From the NCBI RefSeq assembly GCF_009914755.1, contig NC_060935.1: a stretch of 64,000 nt of DNA; one strand, written 5' to 3'. This stretch comes from the human T2T-CHM13v2.0 reference genome, Homo sapiens. The translations under genes were made by a program, and so were the position numbers. The notes below the pieces were generated by a model, which was not told the origin of the DNA, did no database searches, and saw only the letters and a program-made list of their open reading frames with translations. Below, piece by piece: positions 11,281-51,534 of this stretch; position 1 is the first letter of the stretch, and each line of letters opens with the position of its first letter.

Positions 11281-13940
11281 TGCACCATTGTTTCTATGGA
11301 GAAAGGTCTTCCAAGGTCAATATAACATTCATGTATATAAACCTGAGGAAAGTCCATTTGCATATTGGGAATTTTCTATATTTAAAACTTATTTTGATAT
11401 AGATACTATTGTCTGAGTAATTCACACATAAATCCTGATAAGGAAGTTGTCATGGAAATATTTTTACCCTAGTTACGTTTAAAATTTTTTTGCCTGAATT
11501 ACTTTTAAAATTAGATTTGTATGCCTTGGAAACAGAGAGGAAAGAGAAGTGGATTTAGAACAAATGTCAGTACAAAGGTTTGACTTCTGTATCACAAGGA
11601 ATCTGCATAGTGCTGAGTATACAATAGGCAACTAATAAATGTCTTTCATGTAAGGCAGAAGAAGTTTAAAGTCACAACTATATAGCATAGGAAATCTAAT
11701 ATGAAGTATAGGAGAGCTGCTGATTTCTTAGTGAGCTGAGCATCAACAACAAAATGTAGCGGTTAGGCACAGTGAGCTCTCAAGGTAGCCTCCAATATAA
11801 ACAAATCAATGCCAGTATTTGTTATGCTTCACTCTTCTCATATTTTGAATCAAATCACTTTTGAATACTCATGCACATGATGTGCTCTGTGTATAATGGG
11901 GAGCTTTTATATGTTGTTCAGTACTGAGCTTCTCAAAATGCAACTTTACCAACAAAGTTAGCAGAAGAGATGTTGGTAATATATGGTGGTTCTGCAAAAT
12001 CCAGCATGGTCATTTGTAAAAACTAACGTGAACAACTTTTTAAAATCTGGGCTAAAATTTTAAATACTTTCGATGTTACATATAAAATGCAAGTCTGATT
12101 TACTACTCACTTCTGAAAATTCATATTCCAGCTGAGTGCATTCTGCAGGTAGAGAGCAACGAATTAGAAATACTAGTCAAAATAGATGCTAAGAATTTGC
12201 CAGCATCATGCCCATTGATTACCACCATCATTATTGACCATCTAATCAATAAAACAGTACGTTGTTCTGGTCCACGCAAATAGGCCTATTACCTGAAAAT
12301 AAAAAATCCAAAATTAGTTTACAGATACATGATAAATATTGGAGATAAATAAACTTCTCTTTTAATAGATACATATTGAAGTGGGATTAAATCATCTGGA
12401 AGTTAACAGGCACAGGAAAGTTTTAAAATTTCTCTGTTTCCTAGAAGTGCTCTTCCTTAGTGTGTTTCTTTTACATTTTCAACTCTTTCCCTCCCTTTAG
12501 CCATACATTAAAAATTAATGTTTAAGTTCAATACCTAGCATTGTCTACTCTATATAATCTCTCAAATGCATTCCCATTGTTTAACTTCCATTTACATGTT
12601 TATAATACCAAAATTTCTACATCTATCTCAGGCATTTCTCCAGACCAGTATTTCATTGACTCTTACGACTCTTGGCCTAGATATTGCTTCAACCTATCAT
12701 TCATGTATGTGGACTGAGCACACTTGCACCTACTGCCTTGCTATCTTAGAAATGACAGGGAAGGTACTTTAAAATATAATTAATCTATATTAATGTGGAA
12801 GCACAAGTAAATCAGATCATCAATAATATTTGAGAAATTTCTGAAAGGCTAAGCAGATGGTGTGAGATTGACAGAGCATACATTTTGATAGTGAATTCTT
12901 GAAAAAGGCCAGAGAAGGTTTTGAGGGTGAGCCAAGTTCAGAGACAAAGAATACAAAGGAGAGGAAGGGTCTAGGGGTAAGTTTGAAAAATTCATTTCAG
13001 AGAAGGTAGTAATATTTGGCCTTTTAATATATTTATCCATATTACCAACTAATCATCCATCCCCCACCACTCAACTATGCTTGAGTCAAATGATGGGCTG
13101 TCGAGAGATTTACCATCACAGAGAAAAAGTGAGCATTGTCCCTGAGAAGAATGAGGAATCCTAAGGGCTGGAAGATGATCTAGTGGCATCAGTGTGGTTT
13201 CAAATTCTAACCCTTCTACACACTAACTGGAGGCAATCTGTAGTAAACAGATAACTCCTCCTTTAAAGAATAGAGCATCCTAAGATTCAGTAATTAATTA
13301 CTTAAGGAAAAATCATGAAATGGATGCAATTCATTCAACAATAGAAAAACTAGTAACCAGAGACAGAGTTATTAGAACAAAGAGAGGAAGGCTTGTCAAG
13401 AATAATTGCTATCCTTAGATGTACAAATAAGACATATACATTGTGTTAGTTAGACATCTTTGGTGTGAAGCCTCGAAAACAAACAGTAGCTAATTTTAAA
13501 AAGAAATTTATCAGCAGTACATGAAGATGTTCATAGACTACATAGGAGCCTAGAGATCCAGGGTAAGAAATAGAACAGGAACCAGAACAAGGGCAGGTAT
13601 GCAGCAGGAAGAACTATTCTTCTGCAGATTGCACCTTCAAGTAACTATGCTCCACACATCTTGTTTTCTTGATTTTCTTGGAAAAGCAAGTTCTAAAACA
13701 CCGCCTAGTAGAAGTTGAAACACAGGACAGACAGATCGATGAAGAATAAATAATAATGATTGTTAGGTAATGTTTTTGTTTTTGTTATTTCAATGTATTT
13801 TCCAATGCATGTCCTTGACTACAGATAATTTGGGTGTTTCTCTAGTTAGAATCTTGTTATTCAATTTCTAGCTTAATTATATTGTGGTCAGAGTAGGTCC
13901 TCTGAATAGTTTCAATTCCTTTAAATGTATTGAGACTTGC

Positions 13941-14190
13941 GATGTTCCCCTTCCTGTGTCCAAGTGTTCTCATTATTCAATTCCCACCTATGAGAACATG
14001 CGGTGTTTGGTTTTTTGTCCTTGCGATAGTTTGCTGAGAATGATGGTTTCCAGCTTCATCCATGTTCCTACAAAGGATATGAACTCATCATTTTTTATGG
14101 TATTCCATGGTGTATATGTGCCACATTTTCTTAATCCAGTCTATCATTGCTGGACATTTGGGTTGGTTCCAAGTCTTGGCTATTGTGAAT
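13941..14190 (-). mobile_element. L1PA4/5-like ORF2-end/3'UTR fragment without tail (inverted part of a composite insert)
   Basis: Translates to FTIAKTWNQPKCPAMIDWIKKMWHIYTMEY; stops before the G-rich tract and poly(A). Confidence 0.92.
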
Positions 14191-14221
14191 CCTAAGGCCA
14201 GCTGAGAAACAGCCCTGAGAG

Positions 14222-14445
14222 CAGGACTGGCCATATATCTTGCGGGACCAGTGCATAATAAAGATGTCAGACCCCTTATTAAAAAAGCAGGGAGTGGCAA
14301 GTGTGCAGCTAAACATACTAAAATATCAAGCTTTTTCCTTTAAAAATATTGTTTTAGGAAAAAATATTGTATTAATTACAAAACACAGTGGGGTGATAGT
14401 GATACCTGTATAACAACATAAATTTACAAATAGCACAAATATAAT
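14222..14445 (+). mobile_element. MER45-like hAT-Tip100 DNA transposon fragment inside the composite insert
   Basis: CAGGACTGGCCATATATCTTGCGGGACCAGTGCA...TACTAAAATATCAAGCTTTTTCCTTT resembles the MER45 terminus. Confidence 0.6.
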
Positions 14446-17400
14446 AAAAAAAGTATTGAGACTTGCTGTATTGACTAGTATGTGGACTAATACATTTTAC
14501 GAATGTTCTAGATGTGTTTGAAAAAAAATCTGTTCTGCAGTTGTTGAATGCAGTGTTCTATGTATGACCATGAGGAGTCTCATTTACTAATTGGGTGACT
14601 TAAATCTATACCCTTATTGATATTTTGGTTGTCAACTTTTATTTGCTAGTATATGTTAAAATTTTCTCATTATTATTTGTGGATTGTAGTTTTTCAGTGT
14701 ACAGGTCATATACACATTGTATCAGATTTAGCTCCATAAGGTTGATGCTATTGTGAAAGATATTTTAATATTAATTTTGGATTGTTCATTGCTAGAATAT
14801 AGAAATACAGTTGATTTTTATACATTGATTTTGTATCATGCAAACTTGCTCAACTCATTTGTTAGTTCAATTAGCATTTCAGTTGATTCCATAGGTTTTT
14901 CCCAGTAGACAATCATATCTATGAATAGCAAATGTTGTTTCTTCTTTTCCAGTCTCCATTCATTTTATTTCTCTTTGTTATGTTTTTGCACTGAAAAGAA
15001 CCTCCAGTACAATGTTGAATAGAAATAGAGAGAGTGGACATTGCTGCCTTGTTCCTGACTTTTGGAGGGAAGCACCTGGTCTTTTACCACTAAGTATTAT
15101 ATTAGCTGTTGATTTCTATAGATTCCCTTTATCCGATTGAGGAAGTTTCCAGCTTCCAGCTATCTGTAGTTTTCTGAGAGTTTTTATTAGGATTGATGTT
15201 GGATGTTTTTCCAATTATTCTTCTGAATCTATAAATATAATTGTATGTTTTTCTTTTTTCAGTCCATTAATAATTAATTACATTGATTCATTTCGAATGT
15301 TAAAACAATCTTGAATTTCTGGGATAAATTCTACTAGAACATGACATATTGTCTTTGAATATGCTGTTACATTCTACTTGCTCACATTTTAAAACATTTT
15401 TATGTGTGTTCATGGGAAATATTGGTCTGTAGTTTCTTGTAATGCTTTTGCCTGGTTTTGGTATCAGAGTAACACTGGCCTTGTAAAATTAGGTGAAAAG
15501 TATTCCTTTGTTTTGTTTTTCTGAAAGTTTGTAAAAGTTGGTATTATTTTTTACTCAAATTCTTGATATAATTGGCAGTGAAGATCTCTGGGCCTGAAGG
15601 GCTTTGTTTATTTGTTTTCTTTTGTTTTGTTTTTGTAGGAACATCATTAACTACAAATTCAATTTCTTTAATAAGGCTATTCAGGTTACCCTTTTCTTCT
15701 TTAATAAGTTTTGTCCAAGAAATGTGTGCATTTGATACAAGTTGTCAAGTTTATTGGAACACATTGTTCATAACATTCCCTAATTGTTCTTTGAAAGCCT
15801 GTGGAAAGTGTAATAATGTCACTTATATCCTTTCTGATTTTGTTCCTCTGTTCTATCAATTATGGGAAAGTGGGATTGAAATATCCAATTATAACTGTGT
15901 ATATGTCTATATTTCCTTGCACTACCATCAGTTTTCACTCCATTCTTGACCTCAGTAATTTGTATCTTCTTTTTTGACTAGAGCTTTATCAATTTTATTG
16001 ATCTTCTGAAAGTTAACATTTTTAACTTCATTGATTTTTCTGTTAATTTTCTGTTTCCTATTTTATAGATTTTTACTTTGAGCTGCATTATTTTCTTTGT
16101 TTGACTTACTCAAGGTTTATTATTCTCTTATTTTTTAGTTTCATAAGTGAAAAGCTGAGGCCATTCATTTGAGAATTTTCTTCTTTTATAACGTAGGTAT
16201 TAATTGCTATAGATTTTTTTTCCTCCAAGACTGCTTTAGCTACATACCACAAATTTCAGATGTTGTATTGCTATGCTCATTAAGTACAAAATACTTTCTA
16301 ACTTATCTTCTGATTTCTTCTTTATTTAGTAGTGTGTTATTTGGCATCAAAATATTTGGAAATTTTCAAGAGAACCTTCTGTTAATTTTTAATATAACTT
16401 GATTATGGTCAGATAAAACATTCTGTATGATTCTATTTTTTACAGATTTCTTGAGAATTGTGCTTTGACCCACAATACGTTCAATTTATATATTTATTTA
16501 TATAAATTTAGGTATATTCTGCTGTTGTTAGATGAAGTGCTATATAAATATCAGTGAGGTCCAGTTAACTGACAGTGTTGCTCAAACCTTCTATATCTCC
16601 ACTCATATTTTTATCTCCACTTGTTTTATTATTTATTTAGAAAGATGAGTTGAAATTTTTATTTATGATTGTGTATATGTTCATATCCACAATTATATAA
16701 ACTTCTATCAGTTTATGCTTCAGATATTTTGAAGCTGTGTTTTTAGGTGCATAAATATTTAGGATTGTTATGTCCTCTTAATTCATTGACCCATTCATCA
16801 CTCTGAAGTAAAAATCTTTATCCATAGTAGTATTGTTTGCAGTGAGATCTATTTTGTTTGATCTTAATATAGCCACCAGCTCTTTATGTTTATTAACATC
16901 AGCGTGGGATGTATTTTTCCTTCCTTAGGCTTTTTAACATGTTTGTGCCTTTATATTTAAAATAGATTTCTTGTAGCCAACATAGATTAATTCATTGCTT
17001 TTTAAATTTAATCTATCTCTGTCTTTTAATTAGGATGCTTATACCATTTACAATTAATATGATCATTTATATAATTGTATTTAAATCATCTTATTATTTG
17101 TTTTTCATTTGTCCCATTTACTCTTTATGTTATTTCCTCTTCTTGTTTCCTCTCTTGGATCACTAGAGTTCAACTCTTTGCTGTGTTTTCAGTGGTTGCT
17201 TTAGCATTTATTGTATATATTTATTGTATTACAAATTCCACAATATATTGTCATCATTTTGATTTAAAATAAATTATATTTCAAGAGATTTAAGTAAAAA
17301 ATATTCATATTTACATATGCAGTTAGCATTTCTGGTGTGAAAATTCAAATTTCTATTTAGTATTTTTTTTTCTGCCTGAGGAGGTTTTGTAACAGATATC

Positions 17401-31993: not shown

Positions 31994-33394
31994 CAGGAAC
32001 CTGGGTATTTATCTTGTTTATTCATATTAACTTCTGTGAAATTAAAACAATACAAATTATCTTTCAGAATTCTTGTGTGGGTGAAATAAAGTATTGAATA
32101 TAGAAGCTCTATGTAGATTATTATGAAACATTATTGTATTTAATACTGATAATATAAATTCGAATGAACTCAGTTATTTTTGAGGCATTTTTAGACAAAG
32201 GGCACAAAGCTATTTATTATTTAATGGAGGCCTTATTTCCTTCACCGTGAATTCTATATTTGATAATTCATTTTCCATTTTTAAGATTTAATTTTTTAAA
32301 TTGGCATTATTATAGCATCAGATATTGAAATGGAATTGTACAGGAAATTGGCAATAATTGCTAGAGAAATGAAGGCTAATTACTATACTTACTTTTAACA
32401 CAATGTAAAAGCTCTGACAAAACAAATTAGGAGGTTTTCTCATCACCACAGCAACAATTTTCAACTTTGTTTTGCCTTTCTGAAAATATAACCAGTCAAG
32501 CAAAGTTAATTTAACTTGAGCAGAGTGAAAAATTGATTTGTTTTTACATGATGCAATTAGGCTTTAAAAAAAAGTCAAGTTAAATAATGATAAGCACAGT
32601 TTAATTTGTTTATAAGCCCTTTAGGAACTGTATTTTGAGTTATAGCTAACAAGAAATTGACTATAAAATAAGGAAAAAGATTTGACTGGTGGAATGTCTT
32701 ATTTCTTTTTGTTTGTGTCATTTATTTGAAATTACATGGTTGGTATAAATTAGTAACAACATTTGTATGCATTATGTCCTTCAGAAAGGCTTGTTGACTA
32801 TTACCTATCTATTAAAGAGGGACACACTTAAAATGACTCACTTATTTAACTCAAAATAAATATGCCTCCTCTTAAAGAAATCTACATACTCCAAACACAA
32901 ATGAGGGATATATGACAATATCCTTGAAATCAGGAATGTCTGAATTCTATCCATAACATAGCAACTATAAGCAAATAGCAAAGATTGAACATGAGATGAT
33001 ATTTGATCAAAATAATTATTTTTACTGAAGATTTTTGTGGGTATCCTGGCACTTCAATCTTAAATAATATGAGAAAAAGTAAAACATCAACCATTTATTT
33101 CTGACTAGATTACTTACATTATCTGTGTTCACCAAGATTCCCTTGATTTTTCAAGTTATGTATTTTTATTTACGTTTTGAAAAAAGTTTTGCTAGGTAAG
33201 CTCATCTACTTTCTGACCTTTGCACTCTTCCCTGTTCCTGGAGTTTTCTTCTCTTAGCTTTTTACATGATTGCTTTGCTCATTCTCTTCCTTTAGCTTTG
33301 GGTTCAAATGTCTTCTCCCTTAGAGGGCTTTCCCAATGGCACTATCCCAAAAGGCTTTCCCCAGTAGCCTTCTCTCATTAACTTCGACTTTTTC

Positions 33395-35003
<1,609 letters not shown>

Positions 35004-48853: not shown

Positions 48854-51534
48854 TAAAATTATTATTATACTTTAACTTCTGGGATACATGTGCAGAACAT
48901 GCAGGTTTCTTACATAGGTATACACGTCCCATGGTGGTTTGCTGCACCCACCAACCTGTCATCTACATTAGGTATTTCTCTTAATGCTATCCCTCCCCTA
49001 GCCCCTGATCCCTGACAGGACCTGTTGTGTGATGTTCCCCTCCCTGTGTCCATGTGTTCTCATTGTTCAACTCCCACTTACGAGTGAGAACATGTGGTGT
49101 TTGGTTTTCTATTCCTATGTTAGTTTGCTGAGAATGATGGTTTCCAGCTTCATCCATGTCCCTGCAAAGGACATGAATTCAACATTTTTTATGGCTGCAT
49201 AGTATTCCATGGTGTATCTGTGCCACATTTTCTTAATCCAGTCTATCATTGATGGCCATTTGAGTTGGTTCCAAGTCTTTGCTATTGTGCATAGTGCTGC
49301 AATAAACATACGTGTGTATATATCTTTATAGTAGAATGATTTAAAATCCTTTGGGTATATTCCTAGTAATGGGATTGCTGAGTCAAATGGTATTTCTCAT
49401 TCTAGATCCTTGAGGATCTAGAACTGTCTTCCACAATGGTTGAACTAATTTATACTCCCACCAACAGTGAAAAAGCATTCCTATTTCTCCACATCCTCTC
49501 TAGCATCTGTTGTTTCCTGACTTTTTAATAATCACCATTCTAACTGGCATGAGATGGTATCTTGTTGTGGTTTTGATTTGCATTGCTCTAATGACCAGTG
49601 ATGATGAGCTTTTCTTCACATGTTTTTTGGCTACATAAATGTCTTATTTTAGAAGTATCTGTTCATATCCTTCACCCACTTTTTGATGGGGTTGTTTTTT
49701 TCTTGAGAATTTTTTAAGTTCCTTGTAGATTCTGTATATTAGCACTCTGTCAGATGGATAGATTTCAAAAATTTTCTCCCATTCTGTAGGTTGCCTGTTC
49801 ACTCTGATGATAGTTTCTTTTGCTATGCAGAAGCTCTTTAGTTTAATTAGGTCCCATTGATCGATTTTGGCTTTTGTTGCCATTGCCTTTGGTGTTTTAG
49901 TCATGAAGTCTTTGCTCATGCCTATGTCCTGCATGGTATTGCCTAGGTTTTCTTCTAGGGTTTTTATGGTTTTAGGTCTTAGTTTAAGTCTTTAATTCAT
50001 CTTGAGTTAATTTTTGTATAAGGTGTAAGGAAGGGGTCCAGTTTCAGCTTTCTGCATATGGCTAGCTAGTTTTCCCACCATTTATTAGGTAGGGAATCCT
50101 TTCCCTATTGCTTGTTTTTTTCAGGTTTGTCAAAGATCAGATGGCTGTAGATGTATAGTATTACTTCTGAAGTCTCTGTTCTGTTCTATTGGTCTATATA
50201 TCTGTTTTTGTACCAGTACCATGCTGTTTTGGTTACTGTAGGCTTGTAGTATAGTTTGAATTCAGGTAGCGGGATGCCTCCAGCTTTGTTCTGTTTGCTT
50301 AGGATTGTCTTGGCTATATGGGCTTTTTTTCTGGTTCCATATGAAATTTAAAGTAGTTTTTTTCTAATTCTGTGAAGAAAGTCAGTGGTAGCTTGATGAG
50401 GATAGCATTGAATCTATAAATCCCTTTGGGCAATATGGCCATTTTCAAGATATTGAGTTTTCCTATCCATGCCAATAACAAGTTCTGCAATTGCGGCAGT
50501 AATTAATAGCCTACCAATCAAAAAAAAAAAAAAATCCCAGGACCAGACTGATTCACAGCCAAATTCTGCCAGAGATACGAAGAAGAGCTGGTACCATTCC
50601 TTCTGAAACTATTGCAAACAATAGAAAAAAGAGGGAATCCTCCCTAACTCATTTTATGATGTCAGCATCATCCTCATACCAAAACCTGGCAGAGACACAA
50701 CGACAACAAAAAATTTCAGGCCAATATCCCTGATGAACATCAATGTGAAAACCCTCAATAAAATACTGGCAAACCGAATCCAGCAGCACATCAAAAAGCT
50801 TATCCACCACGATCAAGTTGGCTCCATCCCTGGGATGCAAGGCTGGTTCAACATACGCAAATCAAGAAACATAATCCATTACATAAACAGGACCAATGAA
50901 AAAAACCACACGATTATCTCAATAGTTGCAGAAAAGTCCTTTGATAAAATTCAACACCACTTCATGCAAAAAACTCTCAATAAACTAGGTATTGATGGAA
51001 CATATCTTAAAATATAGGAAGAGCTATTTATGACAAACCCACAGCCAATATCTTACTGAATGGGCCAAAGCTGGAAGCATTCCCTTTGAAAACCAGCACA
51101 AGGCAGGGATGCACTCTCTCACCACTCCTATTCAACATAGTATTGGGAGTTCTGGCCAGGGCAATCAGGCAAGAGAAAGAAATGAAGGATATTCAAATAG
51201 GAAGAGAGAAAGTCAAATTATCTCTGTTTGCAGATGACATGGTTGTATATTTAGAAAACCCCATCGTCTCAGCCCGAAATCTCCTTAAGCTGATAAACAA
51301 TTTCAGCAAAGTCTCAGGATACAAAATCAATGTGCAAAATCACAAGCATTGCTATACACCAATTATAGACAAACAGAGAGCCAAATCATGAGTGAATTCC
51401 AATTCACAATTTCTACAAAAAGAATAACATACCAAGGATTACAACTTACAAGGGATGTGAAGGACCTCTTTAAGAAGAACTAGAATCCACTGCTCAAGGA
51501 AATAAGAGATAACACAAACAAATGGAAAAACATT
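48854..51534 (-). mobile_element. L1PA7-like insertion with 5' inversion
   Basis: 48854-50471 antisense; 50472-51534 sense RT region (LSLFADDM); TSD AAAYAGTGTTTTTT at 48840-48853 and 51536-51549. Confidence 0.93.

What the first reader, a model, noticed from the sequence alone, without database searches (positions are those of the whole stretch)
13923..14466. Hidden inverted L1 3' transduction carrying a DNA-transposon fragment
Seen: GTATTGAGACTTGC is duplicated at 13927-13940 and 14453-14466 (18 bp with one mismatch from 13923/14449; target TT/AAAT) and the host L1M is colinear across it. Between the copies: 250 bp of antisense L1PA 3' region with no tail, ~255 bp of non-L1 sequence (MER45-like), CATAAA at 14417-14422 and a short A-rich tail on the plus strand. 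Inference: a plus-strand TPRT product of a read-through L1PA4/5 transcript, where the transduced flank is the non-inverted part and the only L1 sequence is the twin-primed inverted part. Repeat annotation would list these as unrelated fragments. An extinct DNA transposon piece would have been moved through RNA.
Basis: partly seen in the sequence, partly recalled or inferred. Interest (0 to 1): 0.75.

Follow-up and report, generated by a model that had tools for sequence, protein, structure and literature searches.

The report
Inverted L1 transduction from vanished source
A 512-base insertion on human chromosome 11 joins a backwards piece of an L1 retrotransposon to a copy of chromosome 1 DNA that includes the end of an extinct DNA transposon; it was likely copied through RNA from an L1 that likely sat on chromosome 1 and is not in today's reference genome.

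Summary
A 14-bp duplication (17/18 bp extended, TT/AAAT site) flanks 512 bp inserted into an old L1. The non-L1 part has one donor, chr1:165,345,896-165,346,151 (93%). It comprises 31 bp of unique chr1 flank plus 220 bp of a 1,620-bp TIR element that is whole at chr1, so the transposon end was carried as cargo. The second prediction failed: no matching source L1 lies within 20 kb upstream of the donor. The two co-oriented L1s there are too old (77%) or 5'-truncated with none of the piece's marks. New finding: the inverted piece shares an 8-bp ORF2-truncating deletion and three substitutions with one 5'-truncated L1 on chr7, and no full-length parent with the deletion was found. Best reading (0.7): twin-primed 3' transduction from an L1 once at chr1 and since lost, with a gap of at least ~170 nt at the inversion. 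Rival (0.13): a two-RNA chimera templated by the chr7 copy, which lies antisense in a cyclase-gene intron. The mechanism is known; this locus was not found in print; no function is evident.

The parts
13923..13940 (+). Left target-site duplication (14-bp exact core 13927-13940; 18 bp with TT/AAAT endonuclease-type site)
13941..14190 (-). Inverted L1PA piece (end of ORF2 and start of 3'UTR, no tail); 8-bp deletion and 3 substitutions shared with chr7:45,827,900-45,831,386; 4-bp deletion not in the chr7 copy
14186..14190 (+). Inversion-junction microhomology: TGAAT in the window, TGAAA in the donor
14191..14221 (+). 31 bp of unique chr1 flank, ending in the DNA transposon's own 8-bp TSD CCTGAGAG (14214-14221)
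14222..14441 (+). Terminal 220 bp (one TIR onward) of the 1,620-bp TIR element at chr1:165,344,501-165,346,120 (hAT/MER45-type by recall)
14417..14422 (+). Weak poly(A)-signal variant CATAAA (TATAAA in the donor), 19 nt before the last copied base
14442..14452 (+). Short A-rich tail TAATAAAAAAA (last 4 A belong to the 18-bp TSD)
14449..14466 (+). Right target-site duplication (14-bp exact core 14453-14466)
13738..15500 (-). Host old L1 (ORF2 region, 61-63% to other L1s), colinear across the insertion; full extent not mapped

Best explanation
The 512 bp between the duplicated target sites are one insertion that joins an inverted L1PA piece to a copy of chr1:165.346 Mb, and it was likely made by twin-primed reverse transcription of a read-through RNA from a full-length L1PA that likely stood within about 1.4 kb upstream of the chr1 donor and has since been lost. 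Inferred steps: (1) the L1 transcript ran past its own poly(A) site through 31 nt of flank into a DNA-transposon end and ended ~20 nt after a CATAAA/TATAAA signal. (2) ORF2p nicked TT/AAAT on chr11 and copied 251 nt from the A-rich 3' end. (3) The other target strand primed inside the L1 3'UTR (2-nt TG match, mismatched last base) and copied ~260 nt in the opposite orientation. (4) The two cDNAs joined at TGAA, dropping at least 168 nt of L1 3'UTR plus tail and spacer. (5) The same parent likely also made the solo chr7 copy, then failed to fix or was deleted. Shown: TSD, empty-site colinearity, donor, cargo boundary, chr7 kinship, no full-length parent among the deletion-bearing copies found. 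Inferred: the RNA intermediate, a single template, the parent's position on chr1, and its loss.
For: TSD, EN-type site and A-tail. Unique donor, copied across the flank/TIR boundary. 4-nt microhomology at the inversion junction and 2 nt at the 5' junction; about 70% of 5'-inverted L1s have 2-5 bp of microhomology at the 5' junction (PMC2912911 passages). Segment lengths 251 and 250 nt match the somatic medians of 253 and 292 bp (PMC12016303 section 8). 30% of partnered transductions are inverted, and some sources have breakpoint clusters in the transduced flank (PMC13009371 passages). Ages agree: donor vs window 17/251 (about 3.4% per lineage), chr7 3.1% from its relatives' majority, window piece 6/250. 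No full-length L1 with the deletion turned up, as this reading requires. A source L1 lost from an ancestral population is an explanation already offered for other chimeras (PMC13174262 section 13).
Against: No source L1 at the donor and no other transduction from this locus among the 40 scored candidates of each search, so nothing ties the L1 piece to chr1 directly. The gap of at least ~170 nt is far above the median internal deletion of 14.5 bp (bioRxiv 2024.08.27.596794 passages), although only 46% of junctions lie within 20 bp. The shared deletion replaces the last 44 ORF2 residues with HKK-stop. Counting from residue 1275, that removes Lys1236, a poly(A) contact (PMC10830416 passages). The parent would then have needed a tolerated truncation or help in trans, twice. 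The parent would also have carried three rare marks in 250 nt, unusual for an active L1. The chr7 copy has a G at a site where 72 of 2,500 exact-match copies do and the window has C.
Confidence: 0.7

Rival explanations
1. Two-locus chimera. ORF2p primed on a chr1-derived RNA, then switched to a second RNA, the pre-mRNA intron that carries the chr7 L1 antisense (or primed a second RNA from the other strand). No L1 ever stood at chr1.
For: Both templates exist today and no gap needs explaining. The chr7 L1 (-) lies between + strand cyclase-domain exons at 45,819,650 and 45,865,341 (ADCY1 by recall), so its pre-mRNA reads the L1 antisense, as in the insertion. The deletion and substitutions would be ordinary in-place mutations, so no crippled source is needed. 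Two-RNA chimeras are described (PMC13174262), one of them 20 kb away in this window. One pre-mRNA switch was seen somatically (PMC10191854 passages).
Against: It needs two low-abundance RNAs from different chromosomes in one reaction. The somatic pre-mRNA case was transcribed near the target, and the catalogued chimeras have L1 as the 3' part with abundant RNAs or spliced exons at the 5' end. An intronic antisense L1 is common, so the orientation match is weak. The ages do not show chr7 older than the insertion, though the intervals are wide.
Confidence: 0.13
2. Same twin-primed transduction from a lost chr1 L1, but with an ordinary intact parent; the chr7 likeness is coincidence or later gene conversion.
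For: An 8-bp shortening at this site recurs in 4 unrelated copies (chrX, chr4, chr1:170.4 Mb, chr5:82.6 Mb) that differ from the window at 14-60 positions. It avoids the ORF2 problem.
Against: The three-substitution haplotype occurs in 4 of about 13,392 copies, the window included (the two patterns differ by one base, so the ratio is approximate). Its meeting with the deletion by chance is near 1e-3 even after allowing for the choice of sites (my estimate).
Confidence: 0.08
3. A host transcript ran through the 5'-truncated L1PA 11.4 kb upstream of the donor and on to the donor, and was twin-primed with an 11-kb gap or a splice.
For: That L1PA is co-oriented and of similar age, and its distance from the piece (14/250) matches the donor's 17/251.
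Against: It shares 0 of 6 substitutions and neither deletion, including a variant that 12 of 24 close copies share. It is 736 bp with its own short duplication inside a colinear flank, so it was likely never full-length. It leaves the chr7 match unexplained.
Confidence: 0.03
4. Not RNA-mediated: DNA from chr1 and an L1 fragment were captured at a break, or the two pieces arrived separately.
For: The tail is only 7-11 nt and the poly(A) signal is non-canonical.
Against: One 14-18-bp duplication encloses both pieces at an EN-type site, there is no internal duplication between them, and the extra A-rich bases are absent from the donor.
Confidence: 0.04

Closest known systems
L1 partnered 3' transduction with 5' inversion (twin priming); PMC13009371, PMC12350158, PMC12016303, bioRxiv 2024.08.27.596794 (passages read)
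   Same: TSD, EN-type site, A-tail, weak poly(A) signal ~20 nt before the end, two opposite segments of ~250 nt, junction microhomology, donor on another chromosome.
   Different: No sense-strand L1 at all, a gap of at least ~170 nt, no source L1 in the reference, cargo mostly repeat-masked DNA transposon, and a sibling sharing an ORF2-truncating deletion.
Opposite-orientation RNA/LINE-1 chimeras (5S, tRNA, some mRNA) of Law and Burns 2026, PMC13174262
   Same: One TSD around an L1 segment and a non-L1 segment in opposite orientation; twin priming proposed.
   Different: There L1 is the tailed 3' part and the partner is an abundant RNA. Here the non-L1 part bears the tail and L1 is the inverted 5' part. 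This locus was not found in that paper's 6 readable supplement files (mmc7 could not be read).
Orphan transduction
   Same: The tailed, non-inverted part holds only flank sequence.
   Different: An L1 piece is present, inverted, so it is partnered in content.
hAT/MER45-type DNA transposon (name recalled)
   Same: The chr1 donor element has imperfect TIRs starting CAGG and an 8-bp TSD.
   Different: The chr11 copy has one TIR and the chr1 flank, with no transposase-made duplication of its own; it did not transpose.

Membership tests
L1 TPRT insertion | Target-site duplication of about 7-20 bp | tested here: met
   14 exact, 17/18 extended
L1 TPRT insertion | Endonuclease-type site TT/AAAA | tested here: met
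   TT/AAAT, one deviation
L1 TPRT insertion | 3' poly(A) tail absent from the donor | tested here: inconclusive
   7 extra A-rich nt before the 18-bp TSD; the donor's next 10 nt match the target at 8, so internal priming is not excluded
L1 TPRT insertion | Empty site in outgroup species | not testable with these tools
   No primate genomes held; only colinearity with old L1 paralogues shown
3' transduction | Single donor locus above family-level identity, copied with its flank | tested here: met
   93% vs 62-74% for long paralogue alignments; 31 bp of unique flank
3' transduction | Co-oriented full-length source L1 upstream of the donor | tested here: inconclusive
   None that matches within 20 kb in this one genome; a lost, unfixed source cannot be tested without ape genomes
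3' transduction | Poly(A) signal 10-30 nt before the end | tested here: met
   CATAAA/TATAAA variant, 19 nt before the last copied base; that these hexamers act as signals is recalled
Twin-priming inversion | Inverted 5' segment with junction microhomology | tested here: met
   TGAA at the inversion junction, TG with a terminal mismatch at the 5' junction
Twin-priming inversion | Both segments from one RNA, breakpoints close together | tested here: inconclusive
   Gap at least 168 nt plus tail; template continuity cannot be shown
Two-RNA chimera | Two separate template loci both identifiable | tested here: inconclusive
   chr1 donor and chr7 relative found, but chr7 may be a sibling rather than the template
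hAT DNA transposon (chr1 donor element) | TIRs and 8-bp TSD | tested here: met
   CAGGACTAG / CAGGGCTGG ends, CCTGAGAG on both sides, 1,620 bp; 7 of 11 paralogue loci aligned to the same left boundary, 5 of them starting CAGG
MER45 subfamily / L1PA4 subfamily | Match to curated consensus | not testable with these tools
   No Dfam or Repbase library; names recalled. The piece differs at several sites from the window's L1PA3-annotated copy

The most novel reading that the evidence does not exclude
The insertion is a germline chimera of two ordinary cellular RNAs from different chromosomes: a chr1 intergenic RNA at the tail, and a chr7 adenylate-cyclase intron carrying an old antisense L1. It mimics a twin-primed transduction, so some 'inverted L1' pieces in the genome would be passengers from host introns and not L1 transcripts.
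Probability: 0.13. Interest if true: 0.7.

Novelty: new member of a known kind. Interest (0 to 1): 0.42.

Why it matters
It shows a transduction type that source-anchored or tail-anchored catalogues would likely miss: no sense L1, repeat-masked cargo and no source in the reference. The trio of chr1 donor, chr11 insertion and chr7 sibling would mark the place and haplotype of an L1 that left the lineage. If the parent really bore the deletion, an L1 lacking the last 44 ORF2 residues left two fixed offspring, which bears on how strict cis preference and the C-terminal requirement are in the germline. It also shows that a DNA-transposon fragment can be younger than its family. No function of the locus is suggested.

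Tried and rejected
Old L1 1.4 kb upstream of the donor as source: 187/244 identical, rejected. Truncated L1PA 11.4 kb upstream: no shared marks, rejected. Other transductions from the chr1 locus: 1.2 kb upstream and 1.5 kb downstream searched, none among the 40 scored of 41 and of 424 candidates. The three other copies with the substitution haplotype (chr5 and a chr15 pair) lack the deletion; I viewed their 3' flanks but did not align them to chr1, and the upstream-flank search did not list them. A closer relative of the chr7 L1: none stands out, top hits 94-95% (40 scored of 14,261). Polarising the 17 donor differences with paralogues gave 10 window-derived, 5 donor-derived and 2 unresolved, several on near-tied votes; not used for dating. 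An APOBEC-type pattern was considered and not seen in those contexts. Rfam over 13000-36000: nothing at the locus. EN-like sites upstream of the donor: 10 within 1.2 kb, none can be singled out. The trialanine scan's values for residues 1232-1275 were not in the passages seen (bioRxiv 721357). Two older papers (related L1s by 3' transduction, 2003; twin priming, 2001) were not held and were not read. Earlier scan findings were not available.
Full report
1. Observation. The 14-mer GTATTGAGACTTGC occurs at 13927 and 14453 and nowhere else on the + strand of the window. It extends to 18 bp with one mismatch, which puts the nick at TT/AAAT. A second copy within 500 bp either side is expected about 4e-6 of the time under uniform bases. 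With the insert removed, the flanks align across the junction to three old L1 copies at 61-63% without a large gap, so the host is colinear. Between the copies lie 250 bp of antisense L1PA (13941-14190), 251 bp of non-L1 sequence (14191-14441) with CATAAA at 14417, and the tail TAATAAAAAAA.

2. Donor. A search of the whole genome with 14191-14452 gave 8 matches: itself, chr1:165,345,896-165,346,151 (-) at 238/256, and 6 partial family hits of 41-112 nt. At chr1 the segment is the start of a 1,620-bp element with imperfect TIRs and an 8-bp duplication, CCTGAGAG. Long paralogue alignments are 62-74% identical; 7 of 11 paralogue loci align to the same left boundary with unrelated flanks. The chr11 copy begins 31 bp before the TIR and includes the element's own duplication. 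Donor and copy differ at 17 of 251 sites, 15 of them transitions (95% interval 3.9-10.8%). The family name MER45 is recalled, not tested.

3. Source. In 50 kb around the donor (20 kb upstream) the L1 piece matches only two places. One is the 3' end of an old, long L1 1.4 kb upstream (187/244). The other is a 736-bp L1PA 11.4 kb upstream, 5'-truncated with its own short duplication. Against the majority of 24 close copies the window piece has 6 substitutions, an 8-bp deletion and a 4-bp deletion; the 11.4-kb copy shares none. No other transduction from the locus appeared among the 40 scored candidates of each of two searches. The predicted co-oriented source is not in this genome.

4. An unexpected relative. 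A 3,499-bp 5'-truncated L1PA at chr7:45,827,900-45,831,386 (-), with its own tail, a likely 12-bp duplication (10/12) and no transduction, shares the 8-bp deletion and three substitutions. Pattern searches found six copies shortened by 8 bp here: the window, chr7, chrX, chr4, chr1:170.4 Mb and chr5:82.6 Mb. The last four differ from the window at 14-60 sites, so the deletion recurs. The three-substitution haplotype occurs in 4 of about 13,392 copies, the window included; chr7 was missed by that pattern because of a further change. Both together point to common descent. Against this, chr7 has 8 differences of its own, one a variant seen in 72 of 2,500 exact-match copies. None of the deletion-bearing copies is a young close match other than chr7, and no closer relative of chr7 stood out among 40 scored of 14,261 candidates. 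The deletion turns the ORF2 end into MEYHKK-stop, losing 44 residues; counted from residue 1275 these include Lys1236, a poly(A) contact (PMC10830416 passages). The C-terminal domain as a whole is needed for retrotransposition (PMC10830420 passages). I saw no measurement for this exact truncation. The chr7 L1 lies between + strand cyclase-domain exons, so it is antisense in that gene's intron (ADCY1 by recall).

5. Mechanism. Best (0.7): a full-length L1PA within about 1.4 kb upstream of the chr1 donor read through into the flank, and the RNA ended about 20 nt after a weak signal. First-strand synthesis copied 251 nt. The other target strand primed in the L1 3'UTR (TG match, last base mismatched) and copied about 260 nt inverted. 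The cDNAs joined at TGAA, losing at least 168 nt of 3'UTR plus tail and spacer. The parent also gave the chr7 copy and was lost. The segment sizes match published medians of 253 and 292 bp (PMC12016303 section 8), and 30% of partnered transductions are inverted (PMC13009371 passages). The costs are real. The median internal deletion is 14.5 bp (bioRxiv 2024.08.27.596794 passages), although only 132 of 287 junctions lie within 20 bp. The parent must also have moved twice with a truncated ORF2. The main rival (0.13) takes chr7 as the template of a switch from a chr1 RNA. It explains orientation, gap and deletion without a lost element, but needs two rare RNAs from different chromosomes; the one pre-mRNA switch I read of came from near the target (PMC10191854 passages). 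Ages do not separate the two: chr7 is 46/1470 (3.1%) from its relatives, which range 2.4-3.9%, and the insertion is about 3.4% per lineage. The confidences are my estimates. At the 3' end, the donor's next 10 nt match the target at 8, so priming may have been helped by internal pairing; the 7 extra A-rich bases favour a true tail.

6. Comparison with what is known. It works like a twin-primed partnered 3' transduction; 466 of 5,311 polymorphic L1 insertions carry transductions (PMC12350158 passages). It meets the TSD, EN-site, donor, signal and microhomology tests; the source, one-RNA and tail tests are inconclusive; the outgroup test could not be run. Opposite-orientation two-RNA chimeras and lost-source explanations are in print (PMC13174262: outline, passages, sections 9, 13 and 18). 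That paper places L1PA4 after the ape-monkey split, so macaque should lack the block if the recalled subfamily is right. This locus (about hg38 chr11:104,231,650, from an offset given) was not found in that paper's 6 readable supplement files. A search for MER45 with transduction and retrotransposition listed 2 unrelated papers, and a six-term search on lost sources listed none. The T2T repeat paper's transduction table was not seen (passages only) and may bear on the claim of novelty.

7. Verdict. A real, well-spotted insertion with a confirmed donor: a new member of a known kind, with an unusual anatomy and one open puzzle, the chr7 kin with a truncated ORF2. No function is indicated. Interest 0.42; the novel reading has probability 0.13 and interest 0.7.

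Noticed in passing
window 33380-34967: L1PA3 (-) joined to an opposite-orientation 5S rRNA fragment inside one 15-bp duplication (copies at 33380 and 34953). Already listed in PMC13174262 supplement file 2 as hg38 chr11:104251093-104252581. RefSeq shows only the RNA5SP348 part.
   Followed up: yes
G000:C1:165,347,560-165,355,780 (L010): Long old L1 with a 5'UTR-like start and three Alu insertions, co-oriented and ending 1.4 kb upstream of the donor; too diverged to be the source of the inverted piece.
   Followed up: partly
L1PA ORF2 end (L039, L047, L049, L050): An 8-bp shortening at the same place recurs in at least four unrelated L1 copies of different ages; the chr4 copy likely has a shifted breakpoint.
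   Followed up: partly
G000:C15:18,878,458 and 19,706,174 (L063, L064): Duplicated pair of L1PA copies whose 3'UTR stops early, after GGGATAGC, followed directly by an A-run; possibly internally primed.
   Followed up: no
G000:C7:45,832,200-45,832,650 (L040): Tandem array of a unit of about 40 bp, about 0.8 kb from the 5' end of the chr7 L1.
   Followed up: no
G000:C7:104,019,076 and 78,417,648 (L055, L056): Two copies of the TIR element with near-identical left flanks, so duplicated together with their surroundings.
   Followed up: no
window 49031-49292: Another antisense L1PA 3' region whose sequence leaves the L1 3'UTR early; not examined for inversion.
   Followed up: no
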